From the NCBI GenBank assembly GCA_036172245.1, contig JAYWIR010000010.1, forward strand, positions 1,302,001 through 1,366,000: a DNA stretch of 64,000 nt, given 5' to 3'. The position numbers and the translations under genes were made by a program. How positions within the stretch are numbered: the first letter of the stretch is position 1; each line of letters opens with the position of its first letter. This stretch comes from Raillietiella orientalis (taxonomy: Eukaryota). The notes under the pieces are model-generated. The model was given only the letters and a program-made list of their open reading frames with translations, did no database searches and was not told where the DNA came from. Positions 1 to 45,693 of the stretch are shown piece after piece.

Positions 1-622
1 CATTTCCGGTGTAGCATTAAAATGAACTGTGCGGGAAAGAGTTTTTCGAAAATAATCCAATGGGCACTCCTTAAGAGAGATGCTAATCAGAAAAGGCATC
101 ACCATTAAGGGGCATATCAAGTGTGTACGAAATTTCGAAACGTGCGCTGGGAATCCTCTTACCAGGTACATTACCCTTCAAAATACGAAAATTGCTTGCG
201 AAGCAGCAAGTCTGCTTCAATGCTTATGTATTCACTCCTATTTAGCGCAGTGTTAAACTCCATGAACGTTTCCAATGCAAACATGCGGTAATGCACCATT
301 GCTCACAATCATTTCTCCAAATAAGTAACTAGTGGCAGTAACAAACGATGAAAAGGCATTATGAACTCCTTAGGTTTCCAAATTACGAATAAATTCCATA
401 GAAATCAAATTTAAAAAAGGACTGCAGTGTTTACAACTACCATAACATGCAAACGAAAGCGCTCAGTGAATCCAACTCAACCTCCATGGCCAAAGGCTTC
501 TACGCTTGACTTCTTCAAACAACCGTTTATCCACAACAGTTGTGCATCCAAGTTCCAATCCATATGCACGATATACAATTCAAATGGTGTCACATAGATG
601 CCTTCAAACAATCCCTGAAACG

Positions 623-1838
623 AGCTTTTGGATCAGGGAATCCTTTTCGTTCGAATAGGTGGCCCCTTCGCGAGCGCCCCATCCACTTGGCAGGCATGAC
701 GCCTGCCTGCCTGCCTCCTTTCGCCAGATCGGAGCGCGGACGCATTTCCAAGAGACGGCCGTTCGGTGCGTCCACCGCCTGCCCACCCCCCCGGGGGGGG
801 GGGGGGGACACGAACGTCCTTCGAGGGGTCCTCGATCGCAGGACGCTGTTTCGAGGAGACGCATCCACTGCGTCCGGCGCGCGACGGACGCTCGTCAGGT
901 GGGGGAAGCGTGGAAAGCCACAAGCAATCATCGGCGGCGGAAGGGACTGTTTGTCTTTGCCGCAGCTGCCCTCACGCTTGCAAGAATCCTCCACCGCTCT
1001 CAGTATGCATTCTTCGTGGACGGCACGCGGAACGGGTCGGCAAACGGTGCTGCCGCAGCGCGCCCACTCGTTCGTCTCACGATGTACCTGCAGCTGTGTG
1101 TAGTGGCTTTCGTCTCGTTCCTCATTGCCTACTTCGTCAAGAGGTGCAAAGCGAAGGCGGGCAGCGCCCCGCTTCCTCGGAAGTACTACATCTGCATCAC
1201 CGGATGCGATTCCGGGATAGGAAAAGTCTTAGCTCAGCACCTGGCCGACGGCAGAACGCACGTGTTTGCAGCCTGCTTGCACGACGCGCACGAAGGCTGC
1301 TGGCAAGGAGGACACAACATCACCAGGATCCGCATGGACGTCACCGATCCCGTTTCCGTCGACGACGCTTTTCAACTGATCGCAAAACGACTGGATGAAA
1401 CGAAAGGTTCCTTTCACGTTCCCTTCGCTCCCCCCATTCCTCCTCTTTTTCCTTCCCGTTCCTCTTGCACCACTGGGAGTGCCCCGCCGGATCCACCAAA
1501 CCAAGCGTCCGTATCGTTCGCTTCGCTGGCAACTCGGTTGGCGGGCGCGAAATCCGAGGAAGAAAGGTGCGCACGGGCGAATCGGGAGCGGTTCCTGCGC
1601 GCGGGCGAGCACCCGCAACAACACAGTTTGCTCGTCTGGCTTTTGGCGAACCGGGCGCCTCGCTCGCGACGCACGGTCACGACTCGCGCAGCAGGGACGA
1701 GACCGTTCTCTGCTCAGCCGAGATGGCTGCTTGCGTGCCCCGCCAACAGCAGGGAGGCCAGGCAGACGCGCCGCTTGCCGCACGATGACGACGACGACCA
1801 CGAGTGGCGAAGGGCTAAGCCTAAGGGCAAAGGTAGGC

Positions 1839-1875
<37 letters not shown>

Positions 1876-4800
1876 TCGAGCCGGCCCCAGCGGCGCGCGC
1901 GCCAAACTGCCAGCTTCTCGGACGCAACCGAGCGAGCGGGACGGCTCGAGGGCGAGAGCGCCGTCCGTCGGGGCGGCTGGCGCTGCTGGTCTTGAGCAGC
2001 CCGACGAACGGACGGCGCGAAGGGACCGCCCAACACGGGCTACAGGCGCGACGCGCGAAGGCGAAGCGCGCAAAGGAAGCAAGGCACGCGGCAGGGAAGA
2101 GGGAAAGGGAAAGGGGGTACGTGCGAGCCAGAGAGACGGGACGGCCCGGAAGGCGCCGCCCAGGACCGCGCGCGGCTTTCTCGGCTTCGCGGTCGCTCGT
2201 TCGCGGCCGGCTGGCTGCACGGGCACCAGGGACGCGCGTGCGCACGCCGCGCTTTCCGGTCGTGCGCGTTCTGCAAGGACCCCGAGCGCGTGCGATGCGC
2301 AAGCAGCTGCTCGCCTTTCGCTTCCGGTCGGGGTTTCTGCGAGAGGGCCGGTCCGTTCCCCGGGAGACGCTGGTGGGCGGAAGCGCGAGATGGGAGAGGG
2401 CGCGGGAAGGAAATGCAGTGAGTGCGAACGGTCGGACCTCCTTCCGGCTCGGAGCAGACACGGGCGGGCGTCCTCCCCTTCGGTCGGCCGCCGTCGTCGC
2501 TCGCGGGTCGACGACGCCGGTGTTCGCTCGACAGCCAGGGCGTGGCTCTCGGATGGCCGGCGCTGCCGTATTCACGGGTGCGTTCCTCGACCCAGCCGCG
2601 GGCCGATACTCCGCCGCCGAGGTCTAGCGCTTGCGGGCCGACTCCTGGCGACGACGAGGAGCGGCCCATGCGCGCGCGCTGCCAGCCACCTTCGAAGGAG
2701 CGGCAGCCGCCTGCCACCTCGAGTTGGGAAGCTCGGTCGAAGCGGCGCCCGAATGCACGGCGCACCGGGGGCTTCGGGCTTTGCCATCCGGACGGCGTCC
2801 CTCGGTGCTTTCCTAGCTCGAGCGCGTCCGCCCTCCGCACCGGCGTGCCTCCGCTCTTGGCAGCGTTGGCACTGCCGCTGCCGGGAACGCGACATTTCGC
2901 GCCGCGCTTCCTTCCTCGTCGTGGCCCCATCGCACTCGGGGAAGCGGCAGCGCCCGCGCCCCTCAGAGCAGCCGCGGGCGCCCGAGGCGAAGGCCGCAGC
3001 GCGGCTGCCCGCGACTCGCCAGCCAGACGAAGCGAACTCTCCCGTCCACGCGCATCTTTCCATCCCCTTCTTCCTTCCCCCGGCTAAGTAGCCCGCGGTC
3101 GGCAGCGTCGTCTCCTGAGCAAGATGCATCTCCGTTGCTCGGCGCGCCGTCTCCTTCCGTGTGGCTGGAAAAGCGGAAGCGTTGCGTTGTCCGCCCCGAA
3201 ACGGCGCGACGACGCCGGTAGCGAATGTTCGCCGGAAAGGTGGAAAGCGTCGCCGGAAGGCGAAAGAAACCGAAGCGAAGAGCGCGCGCCTTCCGGCCCC
3301 CGCACCGTACGTTGCGTTTCGGTCGGAAAGGGTTGCAGCGCTTCCGTTCCCCCGCGGAAGGCTGCTGCAACTCCTCCTCTTCCTACCCCTCCCCTCCCTC
3401 CTGCTCTCTCCTTTTTTCTTCTTCGTGCTATTCTGCTTCCCTGCTGTGTTCGTCGCCGTCCCAGCGCCGCCGCCGGGACCGCACCGGACGGCTGCGTCGG
3501 GGGCGTTCTCCACTGGACGGCGGACGACGCCGAGCGCGCGCGACCTCCTCGCCAGGAGCCAGGCGGCGTCCGTGTCGTGACGCCGGAAGGACAGACGTCC
3601 AGAGGTACCGGCCGAACAGGTGACGACAGACCGGACCTGCTGCTCAAGCCGGATAGAGGGGGGAGAGGGCGGATTGTCGGAGCGAGCTTTGGCTCGCGAG
3701 GGAAGGGGGTGCGCCTCCGCGAGCGCGCTGTTCCTCGTCGACCTCGCGCGCGCGACTCCTGCCGACTGATCGGGCGAACGCAGGCCAGCGCGGGCGTCCG
3801 CGAGCAATCGGGCAGAGGTGGCGCGAGCGGACCCGCAAACGTCCGACGGCGGCGTTGGCGCGCCCGCGCACGCTCCGGGCACTGTGGGCCGCCTGCCAGC
3901 TGACTGCGCGTCTCTTTCAGGAGAGTTGTGGGCCCTGGTGAACAACGCAGGCGTGTTGGTGTACGGAGAGTACGAATGGCAGACGTGGAAGCAGGTCGAG
4001 AGTCAAGTCGGAGTCAACCTGCTCGGCATGATGCGGGTGACCAGAGCCGCACTACCTCTGCTGAGGCGCAGCGGAGGTAAACACGGGCTTCTTTTGGGTT
4101 GGTAGCGGGCGCGCGGCGGGCCCAGCGGCAGCGTCTTCAGCCGGAAGGCGGGGAAGCGCCGCACTCGCCCTTGAACTCGCGTAGGCTGCCCGAAGCGCCA
4201 ACGTGCGCGCGCGTCGGGGCGCTTCGTTGGTTCGCGCAGCGAGCGAGAGAGGGCGACGGGCGGCACGCGGTGGAGGGCGCCTCCCTGCGGCGGAAGCAGC
4301 GAAGCTCTGTCGGGAGAGCCGGTGACCAAACAGGAGACAGGCAGGCAGGCACGGTCGCTGACGGCGACCCGGCGCGTTGCACGGTCGGGTGTTCCTCGCC
4401 GGCTGCAGAGGGATCCGCAGTCTGCCGGTGCAGTGGATGTGGACGCCGAAGTCGCCTGGGCGGGCGGGTGGGTGGTGGCATCCACCTTTGTCCCCGCCCC
4501 TTGGCTGTGGCTGGGTGCTGCTGCAGGCTCCGGCGCACCACGTCGTGGAATGGACGACGGATGGCGCCTTGGAGAAGGAGGCGCTCGCGTGCGGCCCGCC
4601 ACGGGGGGATGAGCGTGGCAGCTGCCGCAACCGAGAACGCGTGCCCTCCGTCCCAGGATCGCACGTTTGCGGCACGCGCGCGTCACGTGGACGCGTTGCG
4701 GCGCGACCCAGGAACGGAGGCTGCCGGACGAGCGCTGCTTCCCGTCGCGGCGACGGCATGCTTCCCTCCGCAGGGGCGGGTGACGAGCGACGTGCTGGAG

Positions 4801-6001
4801 CAAAGGTGGTGCCGGAACGGGTGGCGCTCCTCCTGCCTTCCGCTGCCCTTGAAGAGCGATGTTCCGCGGGAGCGGCAAACCTGTGCTCAGCGATCGCTCA
4901 GGCGATCAGCGAGCAAGGCGATGGGAAGGCGTTCGATTTCAACGAACGTGCGTGCGTCCTCTCGAACTTCCCAAGGTTGCGCGGGCAACGCAGGAAGGCG
5001 TAGCGTCATCCCGGCGGCGCGGCGGGCGGCTGGCGTCTCGCACGGTCCGTCCGCGTCGTCCGCCGCTGCCCGCGTGCCGAGTTCCGTCGTTGTCCCTCCC
5101 CGTCGTGCGGCCGAACGGCGGCGCAGCTCGGCCGACGTTTCGTTCTCAGCCCGTTCCGGTGAGGCGCGCGCCGGGCGCATCCACCCGGCGGCGGCACGCC
5201 GTTCGCTCGCGTGCCGAGCCGTCTCCCGTGCTCGTCCCAGCTGACTGAAAGCGCGGCCGGGAGTCGGCGGGGGGGCGACTGGCTGTGTTGGGCGGCGCGT
5301 CATCGCGTCAACCTCGGCGATGCTGCCTGCACCTCCGACTGCCTCTGGGAGGGTGGAGCAGGAGGCGTGCGGCGCGTGACTCCGGGAGGCTGCGGGGCTC
5401 GCGCGGCACGCCTTAGCCGCCATCGGATGCTTTTCTGGAAACGCGAAGGGTGGCTCTCCTCCCTTGGTGCTGTTGCCTCCTGCCTGCCTGCCTGCCAGCC
5501 TGCCTGGTGGTGCGCGCTCCTCGGGCAACCTGGAAGCGGGGAAGCGTGCTGGATGTCCAGCGACAGCGAACCCGACCGCCTCGCCAATGATCTCGACCTC
5601 ACCGTTTCGCATGCTTTTATTGCCAGTTTTGGGCGAGCGCATCCGGGACACGCGACGGCCGCGGGCCGGTGCAGCTCGCGAAGATGTGCGATTCGGGCTA
5701 TTTTGGAACAGGGAGTTCGTGCACCGCCGAGAGGGGCTTCGGGTCCTGCAGCGTCAGCCGGGCAGCGCGGAGCTCGCGAGGAGAGGTGGCCGCGGCAGCG
5801 GTCGGAGCCTCTCGGGCTGGAACCAGCTAGCTGCCTTCTCTCGTCGCCTTTGGCCTTTCCTTGGAGTAGGCGGTGTCTGCGGCCGCCGGCGCCGGCCGAG
5901 CTTCCGCGTGACCTTTTCCCTTTTTGACAGGAAGACTCATTAACGTGTCCAGCGTGAATGGCCAGCACCCTTTTCCGGGCATTTCCGTTTACACTGCCAC
6001 G
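623..6001. repeat. Left arm of ~5.38 kb inverted repeat (partner 9395-14771)
   Basis: Mirror ORFs pair with coordinate sum 15396 (e.g. 3091/12305, 5924/9472). Reverse-complement match read directly from agcttttggatc (623) to gccacg (6001). Differences seen: substitutions at 640, 3638, 5959 and 5993, plus the C/G homopolymer tract near 786-807. Confidence 0.98.
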
Positions 6002-6476
6002 AAGTTCGCTGTTGAGGGCTTCTCTCATTCTTTAAGGAATGAGCTATCTAAGTTTGGCATCAAGGTTATTATAATTCGACCTGGTCAGTCTTTACCTTTG
6101 GGGAATGCAAATTCATTGTTAGGATGCCATAGGCGATTTCGTGAAGGTGACGAATATTATGGAGAGGCACGAGGAAAACATCAATGAGATGTGGAATTCA
6201 ATGTCTGAAGAAGCGAAGTGCTTCTATGCGCCGTACTTCCATGGCTACCAGGATGCAGTGACGAAGAATGCAGGGATGACGTCGTTCTTGAATTTTCACG
6301 ACAGTCCTTTGTTTCGAGATTTCGAGCACGCGTTATTCTCTAGCAGACCAAGGATCTCTTATACCAGTGCTCCTCTGTTGTTTCGATTCATCTATTTTTT
6401 TCTGAAACTGCTTCCTTATGCTGTTGTTGATGCAGTCTGGAGTTCCCTGCAGAAAAAAACCCTTATTAGGCAATAA
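1082..6476 (+). CDS. Short-chain dehydrogenase/reductase, SDR9C type (BDH1/RDH/17b-HSD/shroud-like), 325 aa; exons 1082-1406, 3921-4076, 5931-6083, 6133-6476
   Basis: N-terminal hydrophobic anchor, TGCDSGIG Rossmann motif, LWALVNNAG, GRLINVSS, catalytic YTATK, PGDF. All three introns are GT-AG and phase-consistent (978 nt total). Confidence 0.93.
1844..1873 (+). repeat. (CTG)10 microsatellite in SDR intron 1; mirrored as (CAG)10 at 13523-13552
   Basis: Direct read; same length in both arms. Confidence 0.95.
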
Positions 6477-7199
6477 ATGGTTTCTGTTTTTTTTTTTTTG
6501 TTCGTCTTACCTTTTTGATCTGTGGTCTGAGTGAGTTTGGGTCGATTCGCAGATGTGAATGAAAAATCGCAATTTTTTTTTTTTTTTAATGAGGGCCAGT
6601 TTGGAATTGGTACAGTCGCCTGATCTGCAAACTTGTGGTTGCCTCACCCTTCTGGAGCGACGGACGCGTTTCCTCCGCCACTGCAGGAAGATCGACCTTC
6701 TTAGGAGGGCCGTCGGAGCTTCTTTCGCGACCGTCGAATGCGGAGCATACTGTGGTGAGCGCGGGCGGAGCGCCTCGAAAATTTTCGGAAGAGGCCCGCA
6801 AACTGGCGCAGCTACTCCGGAGGGTTTCCCGAGGAGCAAGAGATTGCAGTCCGCGAGGAACTTGCATCCATTAGAGGGAAAACGCTGGACGAGGGATCGC
6901 ATCGAACCCGAAAGAAGAGGGCATCGCGGACGAGGTAACACAAATTGGAGCCTGCAGGAATGAAAATCATTCCTGCAGGCTGCCACAGTGGGAAAAACAC
7001 GGAACGGAGACGATCGAGATTCGGATGCGAGTGTCAAAGAGGGAGTGGAGCACTGTTGCGCCACCGGCGGTGCAAGGGATCCAAGAGCTTTTACACCCGG
7101 GTGCGCCGGGGCGCTTATTTTTTAGTAAAAACAAACAAGCAAGTGTAGGGCTATTGCCCCTACAGCGTCCTAAAAAATGTTCTAATGAGGAATCTGAAC

Positions 7200-7700
7200 T
7201 TGCCGAGTAGCCAGCATGCAGGCTGGCGAGTTCGGTGTACCTGGGCACACGCGCGGCAGGCGACCAAGAGTCTCCCTGTATGCCCTCCAAGAGCTGTGGT
7301 TCCAAGGATCCAAGAGCTGGGTTCGCCAATAGGCACCCTCTTTCGAGCGCGGCAGTAACAACGAAGAAGATAAACTTGAAGGAAGAATCGGCGCGAATAT
7401 CCGTCTCCAGGAATGGCACTCGTTTTCCTCAGCTGCTTCGTCACAAGGAAGAGAGAGAGTGGTGCACGAGCAAGGCGGCTACAAGAAACGCAGATGGATG
7501 CAGCGGCAGTAAAAGATGCTGTTTCGGGACAGCGGGTACTGGAACTTTGCATCGAAAGTCTATAATTACCAGGTCAGGGGTGGAATTTGCTTTTATCTGA
7601 AAAGAAAAAAAGACCTTTAATATTCTGCTCGGTGGAGAAGAGAGAGAGACTGGTCAAGAAGGGGATCTCTCAATCTGGGTTCTTAAACGGAAGGTGTGTT
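7200..7700 (+). mobile_element. Possible highly decayed LINE C-terminal fragment in the spacer
   Basis: Weak echoes of YLG, LF..R.GTL and Cys-knuckle motifs across frames; no intact ORF. Confidence 0.2.
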
Positions 7701-9184
7701 CTGTCGGCTCCTTAGCCGAGGACGGCTGGGGAGCGCACACGCCCAGCAAGGAGCGAGCGATTCGGAAAGAATTCAGCATCCCTCCCCCCCCTCGGGAATA
7801 AGGAACTTTCAATTCCGTGGTCTCCAAGGAGTTCCTCCTAGGCTTTGCAAATATGGGGTATCGGGTTTCTGTTTTTTAAATGACCCAAATGACCTCGTCC
7901 TTGCAAAACTGTGCATTGCTCAGCAAGTCATAATTGAAAGAAACATCCCACTAGAGCGATCCTGATTGTGTATTTTATTTTTTTTTTTATAAAGCGAACG
8001 AGTCTTTTTCAGTTCCAAGCAGTTTCCCAACGTCGCCACTTTCCTTTTTTTGATTGGTTATTGCTGAGCAAAATGCAAACAGATAAAAGAATAAGGGAAA
8101 TGCATTCAAATGACTTTGAGCTCCTAAAAAGAAAAGTAATGGAAAAAACTTCAAAAATAGGCACTCTGTTTTCCTTTCCATGATGATTACTGATTCTCAT
8201 GTGTTAATTCATGAGCCTCGCTAGAGTTCCAAGTTCACCGAAAGCCCGGGGGTGCACGGCAAGCATCGGAAGATGAAGGGATCTTCCTCACCTTCCCCGT
8301 ACAGCTGGACTGCCGGACCACCTGGGCAAACAGCCCAGATCCAGAAAGAAAGCACTTGCGAAAACACCCAAAGGGACTTTAAAAAAAAGGAAGAAAGAAA
8401 AATCCCCGTTGCGTGCGAAATTTTTTTTAAATAGAATCCATATTTAATCGCAAAGGGCACCCAAAGAACCCGAAGGTTTCGTGCTGGAATTCTTAGAGGA
8501 TCTCTAAAAAAACAATGAGATAAAGTCGCTTTCATCTACGTAACAGGATGCACAACCGCGATGCTCGCCAGATAAGTAATTCGGGGAAGAAGGAGCAGCA
8601 GCTTTCGGACGGCAGTCTTCCCACGGACGAACGAGTTCATCACCCAGCGAAGCCGCGCCCGCTGCGTGGCGACGCGCGCGGCACGGAGCTGCACGGAGGG
8701 AGCGCACGGTCGCCAGGCAACGACTGCGCTCTTCGCATGCGCGGCGTGCCCTTCCTTGCGGGTGACCTTTCCCTGTCTCCTCCTCATTCGCCTCCGCGCT
8801 GCGCACGTGCTTTTCGGCGGCGAGCCTATGGCAGCCTCAGGAGGGACGCCGGGGCGCCACTCCTCCCCCTTCGCTCGCAAACGCTCTGACCCAGGCGAAG
8901 GCTTCGCCGGATTCTGCGCAGCAACGAGGAGGGAGGGAAAAGCGAACGCCGCAATAGCGCTCAGTCGTGTTGCGACGTGGGTCGAGCCAGCCGTTCTCCA
9001 GTGCTCAGCTGCCAGTGGCGATGCAACGCTTCACGAGGAATGCAGGCGCGTTTGCATGGAGACCTCCGAATGCGCCGAACATGCCTGAGACGGACGTACA
9101 GACAAAAAACAAAGGCGATCAAGCAGCCTCCGAGAACGTCTCCAGACCGCACAGCGGAGACCTGCCCACCAGACAGCATAAGCT

Positions 9185-12100
9185 TCAGATATGCCTAGGC
9201 TTCTTCACCCTCTTGGATCGATAGCGTGCTTCAGCTTCCGGGAACCACTGCAGACAGGTCGAGTCGATCGCACTCCCGGAAGAAGACGTACCTGCTCGAA
9301 GCAAGCGGGCGCAATGGAAGTGCTGTGCTGCAGAAACAAAACTCCGTTGGGGCCTGTGCTTCAAGAAGAAACCCCTCGAACAGCAACAGGACCCCGTGGC
9401 AGCGTAAACGGAAATGCCCGGAAAAGGGTGCTGGCCGTTCACGCTGGACACGTTAATGAGTCTTCCTGTCAAAAAGGGAAAAGGTCACGCGGAAGCTCGG
9501 CCGGCGCCGGCGGCCGCAGACACCGCCTACTCCAAGGAAAGGCCAAAGGCGACGAGAGAAGGCAGCTAGCTGGTTCCAGCCCGAGAGGCTCCGACCGCTG
9601 CCGCGGCCACCTCTCCTCGCGAGCTCCGCGCTGCCCGGCTGACGCTGCAGGACCCGAAGCCCCTCTCGGCGGTGCACGAACTCCCTGTTCCAAAATAGCC
9701 CGAATCGCACATCTTCGCGAGCTGCACCGGCCCGCGGCCGTCGCGTGTCCCGGATGCGCTCGCCCAAAACTGGCAATAAAAGCATGCGAAACGGTGAGGT
9801 CGAGATCATTGGCGAGGCGGTCGGGTTCGCTGTCGCTGGACATCCAGCACGCTTCCCCGCTTCCAGGTTGCCCGAGGAGCGCGCACCACCAGGCAGGCTG
9901 GCAGGCAGGCAGGCAGGAGGCAACAGCACCAAGGGAGGAGAGCCACCCTTCGCGTTTCCAGAAAAGCATCCGATGGCGGCTAAGGCGTGCCGCGCGAGCC
10001 CCGCAGCCTCCCGGAGTCACGCGCCGCACGCCTCCTGCTCCACCCTCCCAGAGGCAGTCGGAGGTGCAGGCAGCATCGCCGAGGTTGACGCGATGACGCG
10101 CCGCCCAACACAGCCAGTCGCCCCCCCGCCGACTCCCGGCCGCGCTTTCAGTCAGCTGGGACGAGCACGGGAGACGGCTCGGCACGCGAGCGAACGGCGT
10201 GCCGCCGCCGGGTGGATGCGCCCGGCGCGCGCCTCACCGGAACGGGCTGAGAACGAAACGTCGGCCGAGCTGCGCCGCCGTTCGGCCGCACGACGGGGAG
10301 GGACAACGACGGAACTCGGCACGCGGGCAGCGGCGGACGACGCGGACGGACCGTGCGAGACGCCAGCCGCCCGCCGCGCCGCCGGGATGACGCTACGCCT
10401 TCCTGCGTTGCCCGCGCAACCTTGGGAAGTTCGAGAGGACGCACGCACGTTCGTTGAAATCGAACGCCTTCCCATCGCCTTGCTCGCTGATCGCCTGAGC
10501 GATCGCTGAGCACAGGTTTGCCGCTCCCGCGGAACATCGCTCTTCAAGGGCAGCGGAAGGCAGGAGGAGCGCCACCCGTTCCGGCACCACCTTTGCTCCA
10601 GCACGTCGCTCGTCACCCGCCCCTGCGGAGGGAAGCATGCCGTCGCCGCGACGGGAAGCAGCGCTCGTCCGGCAGCCTCCGTTCCTGGGTCGCGCCGCAA
10701 CGCGTCCACGTGACGCGCGCGTGCCGCAAACGTGCGATCCTGGGACGGAGGGCACGCGTTCTCGGTTGCGGCAGCTGCCACGCTCATCCCCCCGTGGCGG
10801 GCCGCACGCGAGCGCCTCCTTCTCCAAGGCGCCATCCGTCGTCCATTCCACGACGTGGTGCGCCGGAGCCTGCAGCAGCACCCAGCCACAGCCAAGGGGC
10901 GGGGACAAAGGTGGATGCCACCACCCACCCGCCCGCCCAGGCGACTTCGGCGTCCACATCCACTGCACCGGCAGACTGCGGATCCCTCTGCAGCCGGCGA
11001 GGAACACCCGACCGTGCAACGCGCCGGGTCGCCGTCAGCGACCGTGCCTGCCTGCCTGTCTCCTGTTTGGTCACCGGCTCTCCCGACAGAGCTTCGCTGC
11101 TTCCGCCGCAGGGAGGCGCCCTCCACCGCGTGCCGCCCGTCGCCCTCTCTCGCTCGCTGCGCGAACCAACGAAGCGCCCCGACGCGCGCGCACGTTGGCG
11201 CTTCGGGCAGCCTACGCGAGTTCAAGGGCGAGTGCGGCGCTTCCCCGCCTTCCGGCTGAAGACGCTGCCGCTGGGCCCGCCGCGCGCCCGCTACCAACCC
11301 AAAAGAAGCCCGTGTTTACCTCCGCTGCGCCTCAGCAGAGGTAGTGCGGCTCTGGTCACCCGCATCATGCCGAGCAGGTTGACTCCGACTTGACTCTCGA
11401 CCTGCTTCCACGTCTGCCATTCGTACTCTCCGTACACCAACACGCCTGCGTTGTTCACCAGGGCCCACAACTCTCCTGAAAGAGACGCGCAGTCAGCTGG
11501 CAGGCGGCCCACAGTGCCCGGAGCGTGCGCGGGCGCGCCAACGCCGCCGTCGGACGTTTGCGGGTCCGCTCGCGCCACCTCTGCCCGATTGCTCGCGGAC
11601 GCCCGCGCTGGCCTGCGTTCGCCCGATCAGTCGGCAGGAGTCGCGCGCGCGAGGTCGACGAGGAACAGCGCGCTCGCGGAGGCGCACCCCCTTCCCTCGC
11701 GAGCCAAAGCTCGCTCCGACAATCCGCCCTCTCCCCCCTCTATCCGGCTTGAGCAGCGGGTCCGGTCTGTCGTCACCTGTTCGGCCGGTACCTCTGGACG
11801 TCTGTCCTTCCGGCGTCACGACACGGACGCCGCCTGGCTCCTGGCGAGGAGGTCGCGCGCGCTCGGCGTCGTCCGCCGTCCAGTGGAGAACGCCCCCGAC
11901 GCAGCCGTCCGGTGCGGTCCCGGCGGCGGCGCTGGGACGGCGACGAACACAGCAGGGAAGCAGAATAGCACGAAGAAGAAAAAAGGAGAGAGCAGGAGGG
12001 AGGGGAGGGGTAGGAAGAGGAGGAGTTGCAGCAGCCTTCCGCGGGGGAACGGAAGCGCTGCAACCCTTTCCGACCGAAACGCAACGTACGGTGCGGGGGC

Positions 12101-13520
12101 CGGAAGGCGCGCGCTCTTCGCTTCGGTTTCTTTCGCCTTCCGGCGACGCTTTCCACCTTTCCGGCGAACATTCGCTACCGGCGTCGTCGCGCCGTTTCGG
12201 GGCGGACAACGCAACGCTTCCGCTTTTCCAGCCACACGGAAGGAGACGGCGCGCCGAGCAACGGAGATGCATCTTGCTCAGGAGACGACGCTGCCGACCG
12301 CGGGCTACTTAGCCGGGGGAAGGAAGAAGGGGATGGAAAGATGCGCGTGGACGGGAGAGTTCGCTTCGTCTGGCTGGCGAGTCGCGGGCAGCCGCGCTGC
12401 GGCCTTCGCCTCGGGCGCCCGCGGCTGCTCTGAGGGGCGCGGGCGCTGCCGCTTCCCCGAGTGCGATGGGGCCACGACGAGGAAGGAAGCGCGGCGCGAA
12501 ATGTCGCGTTCCCGGCAGCGGCAGTGCCAACGCTGCCAAGAGCGGAGGCACGCCGGTGCGGAGGGCGGACGCGCTCGAGCTAGGAAAGCACCGAGGGACG
12601 CCGTCCGGATGGCAAAGCCCGAAGCCCCCGGTGCGCCGTGCATTCGGGCGCCGCTTCGACCGAGCTTCCCAACTCGAGGTGGCAGGCGGCTGCCGCTCCT
12701 TCGAAGGTGGCTGGCAGCGCGCGCGCATGGGCCGCTCCTCGTCGTCGCCAGGAGTCGGCCCGCAAGCGCTAGACCTCGGCGGCGGAGTATCGGCCCGCGG
12801 CTGGGTCGAGGAACGCACCCGTGAATACGGCAGCGCCGGCCATCCGAGAGCCACGCCCTGGCTGTCGAGCGAACACCGGCGTCGTCGACCCGCGAGCGAC
12901 GACGGCGGCCGACCGAAGGGGAGGACGCCCGCCCGTGTCTGCTCCGAGCCGGAAGGAGGTCCGACCGTTCGCACTCACTGCATTTCCTTCCCGCGCCCTC
13001 TCCCATCTCGCGCTTCCGCCCACCAGCGTCTCCCGGGGAACGGACCGGCCCTCTCGCAGAAACCCCGACCGGAAGCGAAAGGCGAGCAGCTGCTTGCGCA
13101 TCGCACGCGCTCGGGGTCCTTGCAGAACGCGCACGACCGGAAAGCGCGGCGTGCGCACGCGCGTCCCTGGTGCCCGTGCAGCCAGCCGGCCGCGAACGAG
13201 CGACCGCGAAGCCGAGAAAGCCGCGCGCGGTCCTGGGCGGCGCCTTCCGGGCCGTCCCGTCTCTCTGGCTCGCACGTACCCCCTTTCCCTTTCCCTCTTC
13301 CCTGCCGCGTGCCTTGCTTCCTTTGCGCGCTTCGCCTTCGCGCGTCGCGCCTGTAGCCCGTGTTGGGCGGTCCCTTCGCGCCGTCCGTTCGTCGGGCTGC
13401 TCAAGACCAGCAGCGCCAGCCGCCCCGACGGACGGCGCTCTCGCCCTCGAGCCGTCCCGCTCGCTCGGTTGCGTCCGAGAAGCTGGCAGTTTGGCGCGCG
13501 CGCCGCTGGGGCCGGCTCGA

Positions 13521-13557
<37 letters not shown>

Positions 13558-14314
13558 GCCTACCTTTGCCCTTAGGCTTAGCCCTTCGCCACTCGTGGTC
13601 GTCGTCGTCATCGTGCGGCAAGCGGCGCGTCTGCCTGGCCTCCCTGCTGTTGGCGGGGCACGCAAGCAGCCATCTCGGCTGAGCAGAGAACGGTCTCGTC
13701 CCTGCTGCGCGAGTCGTGACCGTGCGTCGCGAGCGAGGCGCCCGGTTCGCCAAAAGCCAGACGAGCAAACTGTGTTGTTGCGGGTGCTCGCCCGCGCGCA
13801 GGAACCGCTCCCGATTCGCCCGTGCGCACCTTTCTTCCTCGGATTTCGCGCCCGCCAACCGAGTTGCCAGCGAAGCGAACGATACGGACGCTTGGTTTGG
13901 TGGATCCGGCGGGGCACTCCCAGTGGTGCAAGAGGAACGGGAAGGAAAAAGAGGAGGAATGGGGGGAGCGAAGGGAACGTGAAAGGAACCTTTCGTTTCA
14001 TCCAGTCGTTTTGCGATCAGTTGAAAAGCGTCGTCGACGGAAACGGGATCGGTGACGTCCATGCGGATCCTGGTGATGTTGTGTCCTCCTTGCCAGCAGC
14101 CTTCGTGCGCGTCGTGCAAGCAGGCTGCAAACACGTGCGTTCTGCCGTCGGCCAGGTGCTGAGCTAAGACTTTTCCTATCCCGGAATCGCATCCGGTGAT
14201 GCAGATGTAGTACTTCCGAGGAAGCGGGGCGCTGCCCGCCTTCGCTTTGCACCTCTTGACGAAGTAGGCAATGAGGAACGAGACGAAAGCCACTACACAC
14301 AGCTGCAGGTACAT
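9185..14314 (-). pseudogene. Inverted, 3'-truncated duplicate of the SDR gene (exons 14314-13990, 11475-11320, exon 3 from 9465, running into unrelated spacer sequence to a stop at 9185)
   Basis: Exons 1-2 and splice sites match the + copy. Exon 3 reads GRLINVSSVNGQHPFPGISVYAAT and then diverges (GSCCC...), lacking the catalytic Lys and the normal C-terminal part. Confidence 0.88.
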
Positions 14315-14771
14315 CGTGAGACGAACGAGTGGGCGCGCTGCGGCAGCACCGTTTGCCGACCCGTTCCGCGTGCCGTCCACGAAGAATGCATACTGAGAGC
14401 GGTGGAGGATTCTTGCAAGCGTGAGGGCAGCTGCGGCAAAGACAAACAGTCCCTTCCGCCGCCGATGATTGCTTGTGGCTTTCCACGCTTCCCCCACCTG
14501 ACGAGCGTCCGTCGCGCGCCGGACGCAGTGGATGCGTCTCCTCGAAACAGCGTCCTGCGATCGAGGACCCCTCGAAGGACGTTCGTGTCCCCCCCCCCCC
14601 CGGTGGTGTGGGCAGGCGGTGGACGCACCGAACGGCCGTCTCTTGGAAATGCGTCCGCGCTCCGATCTGGCGAAAGGAGGCAGGCAGGCAGGCGTCATGC
14701 CTGCCAAGTGGATGGGGCGCTCGCGAAGGGGCCACCTATTCGAACGAAAAGGACTCCCTGATCCAAAAGCT
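9395..14771. repeat. Right arm of ~5.38 kb inverted repeat (partner 623-6001)
   Basis: Reverse complement of 623-6001; begins cgtggcagcgtaaacgg at 9395 and ends gatccaaaagct at 14771. Confidence 0.98.
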
Positions 14772-15027
14772 TTCCTTGGGTATCACTTGGCGATATAATG
14801 GTTACTCGGAATAATAAATACATATTTGTACTGATTTTGTACTATGTTGTGGTTCATTATCAGGCAAAAGTTTTATTTTCGCTTTCTATAATGGAAATTT
14901 GTAAATAGTTGTGTTTACTTAGTATTCAAGAATCAGTTGTGTTATTGCATTCGCTATTATGCAGAAAACCTTCAAAATCTTATGTATAAACTTTGGCAAC
15001 AATTAATTGTAAGACTAGTGTGGTATG

Positions 15028-16902
15028 TTAGGAGGATAAGGCTTTCAGAAACTTCTCATGACTGTTTTGAAGCTGGTTTCCAAGAACCAGTAATAGTTCT
15101 TGATGATGTGCTCTGACTAATTTCCAAATGTCTGCTTGGGTGTATAGGAATAAAACATAATCTTCGTCATTACATGCTTGCATTAATGTACAGAGCAATA
15201 AAAAAAGATCAGTACTGCTATATGGGGCTAAAATATAAAGTGCGCAGATTTAGTATTTGTAGGCATCAATGTATCAGCGATTGTTCATGTATAGGAATTA
15301 TTTTGGATTGAAAATAGTATGCTTACCATTCAGGATAGGCTCCCCAAGTTGCCAATCATATTTCTTAAGAATGTGTGAAAACTTGGTCTTTTGCTGGGAG
15401 CTTGGAGATGTAATCAAAATTATAAGTATAAGGCTCACTTCACAGCTATCAAATTATAAATCAGAAGGAGTTATGAATTATTTCAGCAAATTACTCATAA
15501 AGTATTTCTTGCATCAAGACTGAGAAGCAGTTTTTTAAATACTGTTGAGTGACTTGATCCAGATTTTTTAATGTTTCCAAGACATTTGGGTAATCACCTG
15601 TTAGAAATTTTTAGTGTAGTGTTGCTGGTTCAGATCACTCACCTTCATAGATCTGTGCATGACTCAGTTGTTGAAGTGCTGATACATGTTCTAGAGGAAA
15701 TGACTTGCTAGCAATTTCAGCTGCCTTCTTGAAATGTCGTGCAGCTTCCAACCTGTGATTCATCTTCAATAGGCCATTGGCCAATTCCATAAACAGAGAT
15801 ATACATGTATGTTCTTGTCCCAAAGTAGCTAATAAATCAGCTGCTGCATAAAAATGCTGTATTGCTAATTCTAAATTTTCACTGAAGCTGATGCTGATGA
15901 AATGTGTCTCTAATTCTGCCTTTAGAAACAGTCTTGCTGCTTGTGTTAAAAAATTTGCTTCTATTCCACGTTCACCAAGAAGGTTTTTACAACGAGCTAA
16001 TGAAACATAACAAAGTGCAGCTGAATGTTGCTGTCCATAATTTTCTTGCTTTCTTGCAAGAATAGCTACAACAAAGTTTTCGGCAACTGCTTAGGCAAGG
16101 TATGCTTACAAAGTTCTTCAGCTATGCTCCTCAAGTTAGCCTTCTTTAAGAATCTCCTAGAACAAAATCGTTACAATTTAATCACTATGATTATTTTGAA
16201 ATGCATGCATACTTTCTTATAGAAGGCCATTATAGTTTGTTTTTTAAACTGCAAACTAATGCCTACTCCCAGGAAGCATTAGTTTACCGTTTGCATTTAT
16301 TATCAGAAATTCCAAAGGGAAATTGCAGGGCACAAAATTGGAAAAAATTATTTCATTTGAAGATTTCCGAAAAATATTGAAACTAAAGATATTTTTATGA
16401 TGTTTTTAATCTTAGAAAAACTCTTATTACAATATAAATTAAATTGTTAATTCCTTTTCTAATTTATGAAGGTCATTTTATCGCTGTAGATGGTATGCAT
16501 GTTTTTTATATGCTAATGTAAATGTCTCATCATATCTCTCGCCAGTTTGTTGATCTATAAACCACTGGTTCTATATGCTGTTCTTCAAAACTCCTCAAAA
16601 TTCAAAACGCTCCTTTTACTGTTTGCATTGAAAAACTTCAGATTTCATATTGTTACTCTTACTTTTAATTGAAAGTACTACTAACAATATTATCTTTTAG
16701 AGTTTGATGCAATTTTTCCAGTATGGTAACCACAAAAATAATTTTCGAACTGTAGCATTATCGGCAAAACTCAGCAAAAAACGGTGAGAAGAACATGAAC
16801 AAGAAACAGAAATATTTTTGATAAAGCCAAGCTTACATACTTTTTTAATCTACTTTGAATTTGCTTGTATTGGTGAGTAAAATCGACATCCGCATGCTCC
16901 AT
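15028..16902 (-). CDS. F8A1: 40-kDa huntingtin-associated protein (HAP40 / factor VIII intron 22 protein), 317 aa; exons 16902-16841, 16156-16110, 16065-15643, 15597-15495, 15445-15327, 15227-15028
   Basis: Translation gives YKQIQSRLKKRFLKKANL, AALCYVSLARC, LTQAARLFL and C-terminal DLFLLLCTLMQAC...DIWKLV...LLLVL, matching conserved HAP40 blocks. GT-AG introns; 954 nt in frame. Confidence 0.92.
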
Positions 16903-23741: not shown

Positions 23742-25142
23742 ATGTTTGCTTTTTTTGGAAATCGTGTTTTGTATAAAGTTTTTAGTTGCTGGAAACGTGA
23801 AATCCATAGCCAGGTTAGATTTTGGTTGATAGCGGTTATGTGTAAGGTTGCATGTTTTTTTTTTGTAAATACAATAGGCACCTCCTTGGAAACAAAAAGG
23901 ACATGAAGGAACACCGTTTTATCAATTTCATCCTCAGTCAGAATATGCCCAACCACAAGGTGTGAAATTAGCTGATATTACAAACTTCTTTAAGAAGTTA
24001 CCTGAGGAATTTGACTTATGGTGTTTAGAGCAGAAGGAGCGATTTGAACGATTCTCATGCGTCCTTCCCCCCAGGTAAGTCGCTAATGAAACATAAATAA
24101 ATCTTTGTTATCATATTTAATTTACACATCCGGTTGCTGTATGTTGACTTTGATCGAAAACACCGCAAACTTTATAGGTATCCATAAAATATTATGTTGA
24201 TTATTAAAGTTCAGACTGTTATTAATAAGAAATGAAGTAAAGCCTAATTTGAGAACCTACTGATGCATCCAATGAAGAAATCTTGAGCAATCAACAAATA
24301 ACCAGTTTTTGAAACTAAAAAAAAATTCGAGTGTGAAATAAAGTATGACTTAACTGCATTATGTTGGGTGTTGTGCATTTTTCTAGTTTATTTGTCAACT
24401 TTAAAATTTTATTTACAGGCCTGGAGAGATTGATGTAGTGTGGCAGTTTACTGGAGAAGAACACTTGAAAAACTGGACTGTCACTGCAGATAGTTCTCAT
24501 AATGAAGGATATAGCAAATGCACCTTCACTTTATCCCCTACTGGCAAAGCACTTTTCAGTGGAGTCCTGTCCACTAAAGTCCCCAAAGATGGTATTGTTC
24601 AGCAAGCTGGTTATTGCAGTATTATCTCCAAACCACCAATGGTATGCTCATGGATCACTGAGTGGCTCACTTTTGCAGTCATTAGCGTTCATTCTACAGG
24701 GTTATTTATCATGATTGGAGGAACTACACACATTTAGTACTACGACTTCGAGGAGATGGACGAACTTACGTGCTCAGCTTAGGACAGAGAAAAGATTTAG
24801 ACTTATTTTGGAATGATCTTAGTCAGTTTCCACTGTTTACACGTGGTGGTCCCCATTGGCAAATTACCAAGGTTAGTAAGTAAATAATTATTATTGGAGA
24901 GTGTTATTGAAATATGATAGATCCCATTTTCAAAGTTTTTCTTGTCAAGCAAAGGAAGAATTCAGGACAAACAAAGCAGAGTAAACAATGCAGAAGTGAA
25001 CAATTTAGGGATCACCATAGCTGATGGGATTAATGGTCCGTTCAATCTTGAACTGGACTACATTGGATTGGAGTATGACATCTCACATACTGAAGTATTT
25101 GCTTATGAGATGTACAAGACAAATTTCCATCTAAGTGACTGA
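23742..25142 (+). CDS. NDUFAF1: Complex I intermediate-associated protein 30 (CIA30), 299 aa; exons 23742-23813, 23878-24074, 24419-24641, 24686-24871, 24921-25142
   Basis: Transit-peptide-like start. Motifs [78 protein letters not shown]. Phases consistent (900 nt). Confidence 0.95.
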
Positions 25143-31465: not shown

Positions 31466-32526
31466 TCATTTGTATCGCATTCCACTACCTATGGTTTGCA
31501 GCTTCATTTGCCGTCTCAACGCTTGCTGTGTCCCTGGAATTAATGTGGGTGATGTTGGCTGACAATTGGGGCTAATTTTTGTGTGTGGTTGGCTATTTGG
31601 TGAAGTGTCAGAAATGCTGGTTCTCTTCATTGTTCTTCTCTCTTTTCTTAACAACGCAATCTTTCGTTTTTCCTCTATTTCTTCAGGGGAACAAGTTACA
31701 GACTGTGTTGCAACGTACTGTCCACCACTGATAGGGAATAGATCCTCAGTTTTATGTTCACCAACTGAGTTCTGAGCATCCTCCATCATAGCACCAAGTA
31801 GCAAATCCAATCCATCCTTTCCAAAACTAACTTCTGCATCACTCTGCTCTGAATGGAACACTTGTTCCAAGGAAGTACACTGCTCCGAGATTTCTTGACA
31901 GCATTGAACCAGTTCCTTTAATGGACTCTCTGGTCGTAGTGTTCTACATGGACTGCCATCCAAACGAAATGTTGCTCTTCCAGGTTGAACAGGACTGCTA
32001 TGCACTGGTGGGACATGATAGCTCTGAGTTGAAGGGTCAAATAGGGCATCTTCCATTTCTTTTGTAGATAAAAGGAAGGAATCACTCAATTCATCATTCA
32101 ACTCTTCTAAGATACTGGTATTAGTTGTGGATGAGATTATGTTGTTCTGAGAGGCAGAGCCAGTATCTTCTGCTCTCAGTCTCACAGCCAACAAATGTAG
32201 TTCCTCGGGAATTTCTAATGATGCTACACAAGATAAAGGACCTTTGTTTTTTTCCAATTTTTTGTTAGTGATGGAATCTGGTGGAATATCTGCATCTAAC
32301 GGCAAGAATGACTGCCAAAAATCATCGTCCGTTCCTTGAGCACCCTGATCTTGAAAGTGGCCCATCTGCACAGATAACTGCTGCACTACTCCAGATACAT
32401 CACACTGTTTTTTGAAGTCCTTGCAACTCGCAGCTTGCCGAGTAATCCTCTGGACTACAGTTGGAGACTCTTTGTCCCAAACAATTTCTTGAGTTGCTGC
32501 ACCCACTAGAGGAGGACTCCAAAATT
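31466..32526 (-). CDS. ETAA1-like protein (putative RPA-binding ATR activator), large exon; upstream exon(s) not resolved
   Basis: ~350-codon open exon after a tttccag acceptor. QEIVWDKESP resembles the ETAA1 ATR-activation motif (DIFWDxxSP) and CSPEEIEEKRKIALLRK resembles the C-terminal RPA32-binding motif. The rest is acidic/Ser-rich, disordered-looking sequence. Confidence 0.7.
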
Positions 32527-44492: not shown

Positions 44493-44721
44493 TCTGGGCG
44501 GGAGCAAGTGACGATCCTGCGGCAACTCGCAAGCAGCAACCCCGTGGGCGAAGTAGCAGAGGACAGAAGGGGAGTCCCCGGCGGCTCCCGGAGTGAGAGA
44601 AAAGTGACGCCTGCCGAGAAGTGGTACCCGAGAGAACGGAGAAGAGGTCCTCGAGGAGGAGGAGGAAGAGAGGAGAGAGGGAGAAGTCTTTCCTCCTGGA
44701 TGCGAGAGGAGCAAGCTCGAC
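44493..44721 (+). repeat. ~230 bp purine-rich direct repeat, copy 1 (downstream of GDA)
   Basis: Aligns by eye with 47263-47502 (gatcctgcggcaact.gcaagcagcaacccc...gagtgagagaaaagtgacgcctg...ctggatgcgagaggagc), with scattered mismatches and small indels. Confidence 0.85.
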
Positions 44722-45693
44722 CCCCATGTTTTCCCGGGCTCTTTTCATTTTTATTTCTTTTTTTTAAGAGATAATACGAGCAAGGAGAAGGAGGCAACGG
44801 GGGAAGCAGGCTGCCCCACTGGCACTGGAAGTGTCGATTTTCTGTACGATTTGGGATGGACACTCTATGGTCCGCTCATCTCTTGCGCGACCGCAGGGTT
44901 TCGTTTGGGAGATGGACGAAACTCTATTCGATGGCCTCCAGGGGCAGAGAGAGGGAGGAAAGTCCGCTGTCCTTATCTGGAGCCACAGTCTCCGAGTTGG
45001 TGAACCGCTCCGGGAAGAAGCCTCCACGCAATCGCAGCAGAGGGAGAAAAAGACGCCTCGAGGCGTAAACTCCTCCCTATGACGGGGCCTTCCCTGCGCC
45101 CGCCCTTCACCCGTGCCTGAATGCGGCCTCCCTTTCGGCGCCAAACTGCCGCCCGAACCGGGCGATCGGACGCCCCACAAGCAGGTCCACCCGCCTGGAA
45201 GGACTCCTCCAGGAGGCGGACCTTCGGACACCTCTCGGTTGTGAGGTTTAGTCCAAGGCGGGCATCGGAGATCCAAGCACCTCGGGGGGCATCTGATCTG
45301 CCGAAGTCTCGCCAGGAAGAGTCCCTTCTTGGGCAACCCCAGAGAATCTTTTCCTTTGAGACAGACGTCATCTTTCCTTCCTGCAACCCTCCACGGATAA
45401 GCGACGCCGGCGCTGTTGCCGGCCTCGGGAGACGAGCTGCCTTCATAGAACAGAAGAAAGGAAGTCGGAGTTTGCTGTGACCTCCCCGAGAGCCTGGAGC
45501 GCGCCGTGCTGAAGCATTCTGCTGCCGAGGCCAGGGGGACGCCCTCGAGCTGGAGGAAGGGGGGGAGCACCCGGGAGAACTGCCTGCTGCAGCCATGCGG
45601 CGGAAGGTCCCCGCTCGGGAGTCCCGAATGCGGAAAGAGGGAGGAAAACCTTCCTCCCGCCAGTCACGAGGGAAGGCACCCCGAGGACCTTCG

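What the first reader, a model, noticed from the sequence alone, without database searches (positions are those of the whole stretch)
623..14771. Candidate invertible (flip-flop) cassette: two inward-facing SDR 5' halves share one 3' half in a 3.4 kb spacer
Seen: 5.38 kb arms, nearly identical, each holding SDR exons 1-2 and the start of exon 3, pointing inward; the only 3' half (6002-6476) lies in the spacer. Established: a crossover between inverted repeats inverts the intervening DNA. Inference: such a crossover would attach the 3' half to the right-arm copy, so in either orientation exactly one complete gene exists, but with different upstream DNA (before 623 versus after 14771). This could act as a recombinational promoter switch or a recurrent inversion polymorphism in an animal metabolic gene. 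No recombinase gene is visible, so homologous recombination would be the driver.
Basis: partly seen in the sequence, partly recalled or inferred. Interest (0 to 1): 0.85.

Follow-up and report, generated by a model that had tools for sequence, protein, structure and literature searches.

The report
Inverted duplicate of a gene's front half
The first 5.4 kb of an animal dehydrogenase gene is present twice, as a near-identical mirror-image pair around a 3.4 kb unique stretch; this looks like an ordinary small palindromic duplication, with no sign of a programmed gene switch, and no sequencing reads were available to confirm the assembly.

Summary
The arms are 623-6001 and 9395-14771. They are inverted, 5379 and 5377 nt long, and differ by 6 mismatches and one 2-nt indel. 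The spacer between them is 3393 nt.

The left arm and the start of the spacer form a complete 4-exon, 325-codon short-chain dehydrogenase gene. The right arm repeats the 459 nt upstream of the start codon, exons 1-2 and the first 71 nt of exon 3. It breaks just before the catalytic lysine codon. The only 3' half of the gene is at 6002-6476.

Best reading: a real palindromic segmental duplication whose arms are homogenised by gene conversion.
- The differences crowd at the arm edges (P = 1.4e-4).
- The arms are 70% GC against about 40% in the flanks, and the GC steps lie 35-93 nt from the arm edges.

A crossover between the arms would flip the spacer and still leave one intact gene. However, both arms carry the same proximal upstream DNA and almost the same exons, so a promoter switch is poorly supported. 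No recombinase domain was found in the 61 reading frames scanned.

An assembly artefact is not excluded. No read or contig bridged any junction. This is a new member of a known kind, of modest interest.

The parts
623..6001 (+). Left arm of the palindrome (5379 nt). It holds 459 nt of upstream DNA, exon 1, intron 1, exon 2, intron 2 and the first 71 nt of exon 3.
9395..14771 (-). Right arm (5377 nt), the reverse complement of the left arm. It differs by 6 mismatches and one 2-nt indel.
6002..9394 (.). Unique spacer (3393 nt). Its left end holds the only copy of exon 3b, intron 3 and exon 4. There is no Pfam domain in 4 spacer frames or in the right-copy read-through frame, no internal inverted repeat, and no credible relic of a second 3' half.
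1082..1406 (+). Exon 1 of the intact SDR gene: start ATG, a membrane-anchor-like N-terminus and the TGCDSGIG cofactor motif.
3921..4076 (+). Exon 2 (contains LVNNAG).
5931..6083 (+). Exon 3, with the catalytic Ser and Y-T-A-T-K. The arm edge at 6001|6002 falls between the Thr and Lys codons.
6133..6476 (+). Exon 4 with stop TAA at 6474-6476. An AATAAA at 6472-6477 overlaps the stop. Intron 3 is 49 nt.
13990..14314 (-). Second copy of exon 1, in the right arm.
11320..11475 (-). Second copy of exon 2, in the right arm.
9185..9465 (-). Truncated exon 3 of the right copy. The first 71 nt (9465-9395) match the gene. The frame then reads Y-A-A-T-G instead of Y-T-A-T-K and stays open for 69 further codons, to a stop at 9185-9187. 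A donor-like CAG|GTACGT lies at 9294-9286.
658..5908 (.). GC-rich, CpG-rich block inside the left arm (about 70% GC, CpG observed/expected about 1.2). Its limits lie 35 nt and 93 nt inside the arm edges. The mirror block ends at 14736 in the right arm.

Best explanation
This is a real, small palindromic (inverted) segmental duplication in an animal genome. The 5' 5.4 kb of a four-exon short-chain dehydrogenase gene was copied in reverse orientation 3.4 kb downstream. The copied part comprises 459 nt of upstream DNA, exons 1-2, two GC-rich introns and 71 nt of exon 3.

The left copy continues into the only 3' half and is the working gene. The right copy is a promoter-bearing, truncated fragment. 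It lacks the catalytic lysine and the whole C-terminal part, so it cannot encode an active enzyme.

Inferred: the two arms exchange sequence by arm-to-arm gene conversion. This keeps their interior identical, leaves differences only near the edges, and may have raised their GC content through GC-biased conversion.

Also inferred, from geometry and from what is known of inverted repeats: an occasional intrachromatid crossover would invert the spacer and hand the 3' half to the other arm. Such a flip would be nearly neutral, because both arms bring the same proximal upstream DNA and almost the same exons. It would be a by-product of the structure, not a programmed switch.
For: Structure: searches give the arms, their 99.85% identity and the sharp edges.

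Gene model:
- The four exons have GT-AG, phase-1 introns and join into 978 nt with one terminal stop.
- Exons 1 and 3 hit Pfam adh_short. NCBIfam gives SDR family matches for exons 1-3.
- Among solved structures, DHRS9 is the only match for exon 1 and the third-best for exon 3.
- The YxxxK motif is aligned. The exon runs unbroken across 6001|6002, so that junction is genuine genomic sequence.

Two distinct copies that interact:
- 4 of 5 difference events lie within 167 nt of an arm edge (simulation P = 1.4e-4). The interior stretch 795-5958 has one mismatch.
- All 6 mismatches pair a weak base with a strong base.

Composition:
- The arms are about 70% GC with CpG observed/expected about 1.2. 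Positions 1-622 are 40% GC and 14751-15000 are 32% GC.
- The GC change points at 657, 5908 and 14736 lie 35, 93 and 35 nt from the arm edges.
- Only 1 of 195 500-nt windows outside the arms reaches 65% GC.
- GC at third codon positions is 0.71 in the arm part of the coding sequence and 0.51 in the spacer part (Fisher P = 3e-4).

Literature, passages read:
- Primate X palindromes have GC-elevated arms through GC-biased conversion (PMC8981503).
- In human Y palindrome P6, conversion is frequent and inversion rare (PMC3723533).
- Inversions mediated by inverted repeats recur (PMC3961182).
Against: There is no read-level support. The only public run found holds 7% of the sampled words, and none of the contig pieces listed reaches a junction (8 of 24 shown; the bins over both inner junctions have no cover). 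No genome is held for the window, and no relatives were found for comparison.

The edge clustering has other possible causes: polishing that homogenises repeat interiors, or poor consensus quality near the ends of contigs that were joined.

A GC-rich block of about 60% also exists at 44-50 kb with no inverted partner in the window. GC-rich gene regions therefore occur in this genome without a palindrome.

The third-position GC contrast could be an ordinary 5'-to-3' gradient.

A shift from about 40% to 70% GC is far larger than the 4-5 points reported for primate palindromes.

Only 622 nt of left flank are visible, so I cannot tell whether the structure sits at a contig end.
Confidence: 0.55

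Rival explanations
1. Assembly artefact. There is only one copy of the 5' half. Two haplotype contigs, or a chimeric read, were joined head to head at 9394|9395, and the different sequence beyond 623 / 14771 reflects a structural difference between the haplotypes. The 0.1% arm difference would then be heterozygosity.
For: No read or contig bridges any junction. The arm difference of 0.1% is compatible with allelic variation. Differences near 6001/9395 could be consensus errors at a contig end. A 70% GC block is a likely place for assemblies to break. There is a precedent: the palindromes of the first Adineta vaga assembly were not recovered in the chromosome-level assembly and were attributed to erroneous scaffolding of phased haplotypes (passage read in PMC8494291).
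Against: Two novel junctions are needed (9394|9395 and 14771|14772), not one. The window has no N, so there is no scaffold gap at either junction. Positions 1-622 match nothing in the 49 kb to the right of the palindrome, so a simple insertion polymorphism within the window does not reconcile the two outer flanks. Fold-back chimeras from missed adapters give palindromes without a spacer (my own knowledge, not checked here), whereas this one has 3393 nt.
Confidence: 0.25
2. A real but very young inverted duplication with no arm-to-arm conversion. The GC-rich island existed before the duplication, and the breakpoints fell at its edges by chance or because replication stalls there. The few differences are new mutations or sequencing errors.
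For: Overall divergence is only 0.1%, and the microsatellites at 1843-1874 and 5474-5506 are identical in both arms. A separate GC-rich block without a partner lies at 44-50 kb. The first 30-60 nt beyond the inner edge keep a weak, scrambled similarity (P = 0.003-0.005 against shuffles), as expected of a template-switch junction scar.
Against: The strong edge clustering of the differences (P = 1.4e-4) is not expected for new mutations spread over 5.4 kb. Both GC change points on the ancestral (left) side lie within 100 nt of the breakpoints, which is an unlikely coincidence.
Confidence: 0.15
3. A functional flip-flop: the orientation of the spacer is switched at a useful rate, between tissues, stages or individuals, to put the gene under different distal control.
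For: Only the geometry supports it: either orientation leaves one intact gene. The outer flanks differ sharply in composition and CpG depletion, from 40% GC on the left to 32-38% GC with CpG observed/expected 0.1-0.6 on the right.
Against: There is no recombinase or transposase domain in 61 scanned frames. The arms are 5.4 kb of plain homology, not short recombination sites. Both arms bring the same 459 nt upstream region and CpG island, so the core promoter would not change. In the best-studied palindrome, crossovers are much rarer than conversions (3 inversions against 56 conversions; PMC3723533).
Confidence: 0.03
4. A hairpin or antisense RNA source. Transcription from the right-arm promoter runs through the spacer, antisense to exons 4-3b, into the left arm, or read-through occurs from the left gene. 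Either gives a long double-stranded RNA that is diced into small RNAs acting on the dehydrogenase mRNA.
For: The two copies are convergent and each has its own upstream region. Hairpin RNA loci that target the parent gene are described in Drosophila. I saw only search listings and abstract openings for these papers (PMC10317233, PMC10292708).
Against: The intact gene has an AATAAA at its stop codon, which argues for termination before the spacer. There are no expression data of any kind. The arms are mostly intron, which would be spliced out of a mature hairpin.
Confidence: 0.05

Closest known systems
Large palindromes of mammalian sex chromosomes (human Y P1-P8, primate X palindromes)
   Same: Inverted arms of 99.9% identity around a unique spacer, arm-to-arm gene conversion, GC content higher in the arms than in the flanks, and occasional spacer inversion by intrachromatid crossover (passages read in PMC8981503 and PMC3723533).
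   Different: Those arms are reported as larger than 10 kb (abstract of PMC5997626), and by my recall carry whole, mostly testis-expressed genes. Here the arms are 5.4 kb, hold only the 5' part of one metabolic gene, and end inside an exon. The GC excess is about 30 points against 4-5. The organism and chromosome are unknown.
Gene-fragment inverted repeats that mediate inversions in human genes (F8 intron 22 repeats, IDS and its pseudogene; recalled, except that PMC3961182 mentions the haemophilia inversion)
   Same: A nearby inverted copy of part of a gene recombines with the gene by homologous recombination and flips the DNA between them.
   Different: In those cases the flip breaks the gene and causes disease. 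Here the duplicated part includes the start of the gene and its upstream DNA, so the flip would rebuild an intact gene.
Polymorphic, recurrent inversions flanked by inverted repeats (for example FLNA-EMD; Aguado et al. 2014)
   Same: Benign toggling of a unique segment between high-identity inverted repeats. 11 of 16 analysable human cases show signs of recurrence (PMC3961182).
   Different: Those repeats usually lie outside the genes concerned. Here the repeat edge cuts an exon, so the orientation decides which arm is part of the gene.
Site-specific invertible switches and shufflons of bacteria and phages (Hin, Fim, Rci; recalled)
   Same: A constant gene part is joined to one of two inward-facing partners by DNA inversion.
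   Different: Those use a dedicated recombinase and short inverted sites, and give two different outputs. Here no recombinase was found, the arms are 5.4 kb long, and the two outputs are almost the same.
Palindromes of the first Adineta vaga draft assembly
   Same: Near-identical inverted blocks on one scaffold of an invertebrate assembly.
   Different: Those were later attributed to mis-scaffolded haplotypes (PMC8494291). Whether that applies here is untested. This window has no gap at either junction.

Membership tests
Palindromic segmental duplication | Two arms in inverted orientation with very high identity | tested here: met
   5379 aligned columns at 99.85% identity
Palindromic segmental duplication | Unique spacer between the arms, with sharp arm edges | tested here: met
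   The spacer is 3393 nt. There is no significant similarity beyond the edges in long alignments. Only a weak 30-60 nt trace remains at the inner edge, and none at the outer edge.
Palindromic segmental duplication | Both arms present on one DNA molecule in the organism | tested here: inconclusive
   One public run holds 7% of the sampled words, and none of the contig pieces listed (8 of 24 shown) reaches a junction. No genome is held for the window.
Palindromic segmental duplication | Arm-to-arm gene conversion | tested here: inconclusive
   Differences cluster at the arm edges (P = 1.4e-4), and the GC-rich block coincides with the arms. There is no outgroup or population data to show actual conversion events.
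Programmed invertible DNA switch | Dedicated recombinase gene in or beside the element | tested here: not met
   Pfam scans of 12 + 49 frames of the window found only SNAP/TPR, CIA30, Amidohydro_1 and RVT_1. Frames shorter than 110 aa beyond 14.8 kb, most frames inside 1-14.8 kb (5 scanned there) and spliced genes were not scanned.
Programmed invertible DNA switch | The two orientations give different outputs (promoter on/off, or alternative protein parts) | tested here: not met
   Both arms carry the same 459 nt upstream region and the same exons except for one codon.
Classical short-chain dehydrogenase/reductase (Pfam adh_short) | Rossmann-fold cofactor motif TGxxxGxG, NNAG, and catalytic Ser and YxxxK | tested here: met
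   TGCDSGIG, LVNNAG, and NVSS followed by YTATK are seen in the translations. adh_short E-values are 9.4e-7 for exon 1 and 1.1e-16 for exon 3. YxxxK is aligned to a solved SDR. The right copy lacks the Lys.
DHRS9 / retinol-dehydrogenase-like SDR group (group name recalled) | Closest similarity to members of that group along the whole length | tested here: inconclusive
   DHRS9 (9b2f) is the only solved match for exon 1 (E = 9.5e-6) and the third-best for exon 3. Exon 4 matches nothing in the PDB, NCBIfam or Pfam, and aligns only weakly and colinearly with the C-terminus of P0001 (E = 0.15).
Hairpin RNA locus | One transcript spanning both arms, and small RNAs derived from it | not testable with these tools
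   No RNA run was listed.

The most novel reading that the evidence does not exclude
The palindrome is old and is kept by frequent arm-to-arm conversion. GC-biased conversion confined to the arms has driven 5 kb of introns and upstream DNA to 70% GC in a roughly 40% GC neighbourhood. That would be a far stronger effect than in any mammalian palindrome described in the passages I read. Repeated spacer flips would let each arm serve in turn as the working 5' half of the gene, which would explain why a 'truncated' copy stays intact.
Probability: 0.15. Interest if true: 0.6.

Novelty: new member of a known kind. Interest (0 to 1): 0.33.

Why it matters
If real, this is a compact case that is easy to assay by PCR, 14 kb in all. 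The same locus would allow measurement of gene conversion, GC-biased conversion and inversion toggling between inverted repeats, in a non-mammalian animal and outside the sex-chromosome setting where such palindromes are best known. The orientation also decides which arm belongs to the gene, so either state leaves one working copy. That makes inversions here harmless and therefore free to recur.

If it is an artefact, it is a false partial gene duplication of a kind that inflates gene counts in invertebrate assemblies. Either way, it gives no support for a new kind of programmed switch.

Tried and rejected
- Whole-genome search: no genome is held for this window.
- Earlier notes of this scan: none on this genome, and nothing relevant by keywords.
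- Public runs: one run listed (X1, share 0.07, kept as contigs), and no RNA holder listed.
- Laying X1 on 1-9600: 15 records were laid. Among the 8 pieces shown were four perfect pieces of 151-195 nt, two in the arm and two in the spacer, at depth 2-3. There was no cover over 5761-6080 or 9281-9600 and no joint at an arm edge. By the tool's own statement, the depth figures are not a copy number. The run therefore says nothing for or against the second arm.
- Relatives: exon 4 against the protein collection (longer proteins) gave nothing. Exon 1 gave 3 weak hits of 28-40% identity, one of them from Trichoplax. Two scans of the metagenome contigs, with exon 4 and then exon 1, found no relative. 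No comparison with another species was possible.
- Protein atlas: exon 1 lies nearest to eukaryotic adh_short clusters labelled Chordata, Annelida and Rotifera. This shows only that the gene is animal-like.
- Rfam: no RNA family in the window.
- Relic of a second 3' half in the spacer: the best translated hits were 16 aa at 7047-7000 on the minus strand (E = 0.013 in the spacer alone) and 31 aa at 7872-7786 (E = 0.31). A hit on the wrong strand (7950-7994, E = 0.058) scores as well, so I treat these as chance.
- Longer homology beyond the edges: none.
- Internal repeats in the arm and spacer: none of note.
- A mobile element as carrier of the arm: rejected, because the left arm runs in frame into the rest of exon 3.


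Full report
**The observation**

The repeat finder gives the arm pairs 795-6001 / 9395-14601 (5207 nt, 100%) and 623-805 / 14589-14771 (183 nt, 98%). BLAST joins them into one alignment of 5379 columns at 99.85% identity, with 6 mismatches and 1 gap.

A base-by-base comparison lists the mismatches at left/right positions 640/14754, 787/14607, 790/14604, 3638/11758, 5959/9437 and 5993/9403. The 2-nt indel is at 793-794, inside a run of C followed by a run of G. The spacer is 6002-9394, 3393 nt. The window contains no N. The arm sequence occurs nowhere else in the 64 kb.

**The gene**

On the + strand four exons join into 978 nt with a single, terminal stop, giving 325 codons. The exons are 1082-1406, 3921-4076, 5931-6083 and 6133-6476. 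Their GT-AG, phase-1 introns were read from the sequence.

Evidence for the family:
- Exons 1 and 3 match Pfam adh_short, with E = 9.4e-7 and 1.1e-16.
- Exons 1-3 match many SDR models of NCBIfam, none near its family cut-off.
- Among solved structures, DHRS9 (9b2f) is the only match for exon 1 and the third-best for exon 3.
- The translations show TGCDSGIG, LVNNAG, and NVSS followed by YTATK.

Exon 4 matches no library. It aligns only weakly, but colinearly, with the C-terminus of a distant SDR (E = 0.15). An AATAAA overlaps the stop codon. Protein searches found no close relative, and a feature search places exon 1 among eukaryotic, animal-labelled SDR clusters. The organism remains unknown to me.

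**What is duplicated**

tblastn of the exon translations against the window finds exons 1 and 2 twice at 100%. The first 23 residues of exon 3 occur a second time at 9463-9395, and exon 4 occurs once only.

The inner arm edge, 6001|6002, falls between the Thr and Lys codons of the catalytic YxxxK. The right copy reads Y-A-A-T-G and then runs on in an open frame for 69 codons into the spacer, to a stop at 9185-9187. A donor-like CAG|GTACGT lies at 9294-9286.

The right copy therefore has upstream DNA, a start codon and two and a half exons, but it cannot make an active enzyme. The exon is continuous across 6001|6002, so the left arm-spacer junction is genuine. The novel junctions are 9394|9395 and 14771|14772.

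**Edges and composition**

Long alignments show no similarity beyond the edges. Anchored at the inner edge, the first 30-60 nt keep a weak, gapped similarity (P = 0.003-0.005 against shuffles and against other spacer windows). It fades by 90-150 nt, and the outer edge shows none. This could be a junction scar or a short decayed extension. I give it little weight.

The differences between the arms are not spread evenly. I counted the 787/790/793 cluster as one event. On that count, 4 of 5 events lie within 167 nt of an edge (simulated P = 1.4e-4), and the stretch 795-5958 has a single mismatch.

The arms are also compositionally distinct:
- They are about 70% GC with CpG observed/expected about 1.2. 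Positions 1-622 are 40% GC and the DNA just right of 14771 is 32%.
- Likelihood change points lie at 657, 5908 and 14736, that is 35, 93 and 35 nt inside the arm edges.
- On the right inner side the main GC step is at 8581, inside the spacer, not at the arm edge.
- Outside the arms only 1 of 195 windows of 500 nt reaches 65% GC.
- Third codon positions are 71% GC in the arm part of the coding sequence and 51% in the spacer part (P = 3e-4).

**Reading**

The simplest account is a real inverted segmental duplication whose arms exchange sequence by gene conversion. That explains three things together: the near-identity, the differences confined to the edges where conversion tracts rarely reach, and the GC-rich block matching the arms.

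All three features are described for mammalian sex-chromosome palindromes. In primate X palindromes the arms are 46% GC against 41% in the flanks, with an equilibrium of 61% under GC-biased conversion, and spacers are unstable (passages read in PMC8981503). In human Y palindrome P6, conversion is fast and inversions are rare, with 3 inversions against 56 conversions in 83 phased chromosomes (passages read in PMC3723533).

The excess here, about 30 points, is much larger. A 60% GC block without a partner in the window lies at 44-50 kb. A pre-existing GC-rich island therefore remains a fair alternative.

**The flip-flop idea**

The geometry is correct. A crossover between the arms would invert 6002-9394 and join exon 3b and exon 4 to the right arm, so either orientation has one complete gene and one truncated copy.

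However, each arm brings the same 459 nt of upstream DNA and the same CpG-rich island. Only DNA more than 459 nt upstream of the ATG would change, and the protein would differ by one residue (Thr/Ala, from 5993/9403). No recombinase or transposase domain was found in the 12 + 49 frames scanned. The only hits were SNAP/TPR, CIA30, Amidohydro_1 and a reverse transcriptase fragment.

Recurrent, benign inversion between inverted repeats is well documented, with signs of recurrence in 11 of 16 analysable human cases (PMC3961182). Toggling here is therefore plausible as a by-product of the structure. Nothing points to a regulated switch.

**Artefact**

I could not test the assembly.
- No genome is held.
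- The single public run holds 7% of the sampled words. It gave only short contigs, and none of the pieces listed (8 of 24 shown) reaches a junction.
- Two metagenome scans found nothing.

A head-to-head join of two haplotype contigs could mimic this structure. Palindromes of that origin were reported for the first Adineta vaga assembly (passage read in PMC8494291). Poor consensus at contig ends and breaks at very GC-rich DNA could also imitate the edge effects.

Against an artefact:
- Two novel junctions are needed.
- Neither junction has a gap.
- The left outer flank matches nothing to the right of the palindrome within the window.

I put the artefact at about one in four.

**Verdict**

This is most likely a small, conversion-maintained palindrome that duplicates the front half of an SDR gene. 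It is a new member of a known kind and of modest interest. The most novel reading still open is an old palindrome driven to extreme GC content by biased conversion, with the two arms taking turns as the gene's working front half.

Noticed in passing
window 44000-50000: A second GC-rich block (56-65% GC, CpG observed/expected 0.6-1.0). It holds an Amidohydro_1 exon on the minus strand (46204-46896), which by my recall looks like guanine deaminase. It also holds a 247-column direct repeat at 84.6% identity (44488-44721 / 47258-47502). It has no inverted partner within the window.
   Followed up: partly
window 15000-16000: Extreme CpG depletion (observed/expected 0.11-0.27) over a SNAP/TPR-like exon on the minus strand (15635-16090). 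It lies directly beside arms with CpG observed/expected about 1.2. This mosaic is what methylated and unmethylated DNA would give.
   Followed up: no
window 9286-9294 (minus strand): The truncated right copy runs into a consensus-like splice donor (CAG|GTACGT) 103 nt past the breakpoint. It is in the same intron phase as the normal exon 3, so a chimeric spliced transcript is conceivable.
   Followed up: no
window 6002-6060 against 9335-9394: A weak, gapped similarity persists for 30-60 nt beyond the inner arm edge (P = 0.003-0.005). It is either a junction scar or a decayed extension of the repeat.
   Followed up: partly
window 62133-62714 (minus strand): A reverse transcriptase (RVT_1) fragment, probably a LINE remnant.
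   Followed up: no
window 24405-24737 (+): An exon matching CIA30 (complex I assembly factor) in an AT-rich, CpG-poor stretch.
   Followed up: no
window 31466-32539 (minus strand): A 357-codon open frame with no Pfam match, possibly a large exon of a lineage-specific protein.
   Followed up: no
window 30383-30412, 52842-52887, 56543-56586: Three short self-complementary palindromes of 30-46 nt (91-100% identity).
   Followed up: no
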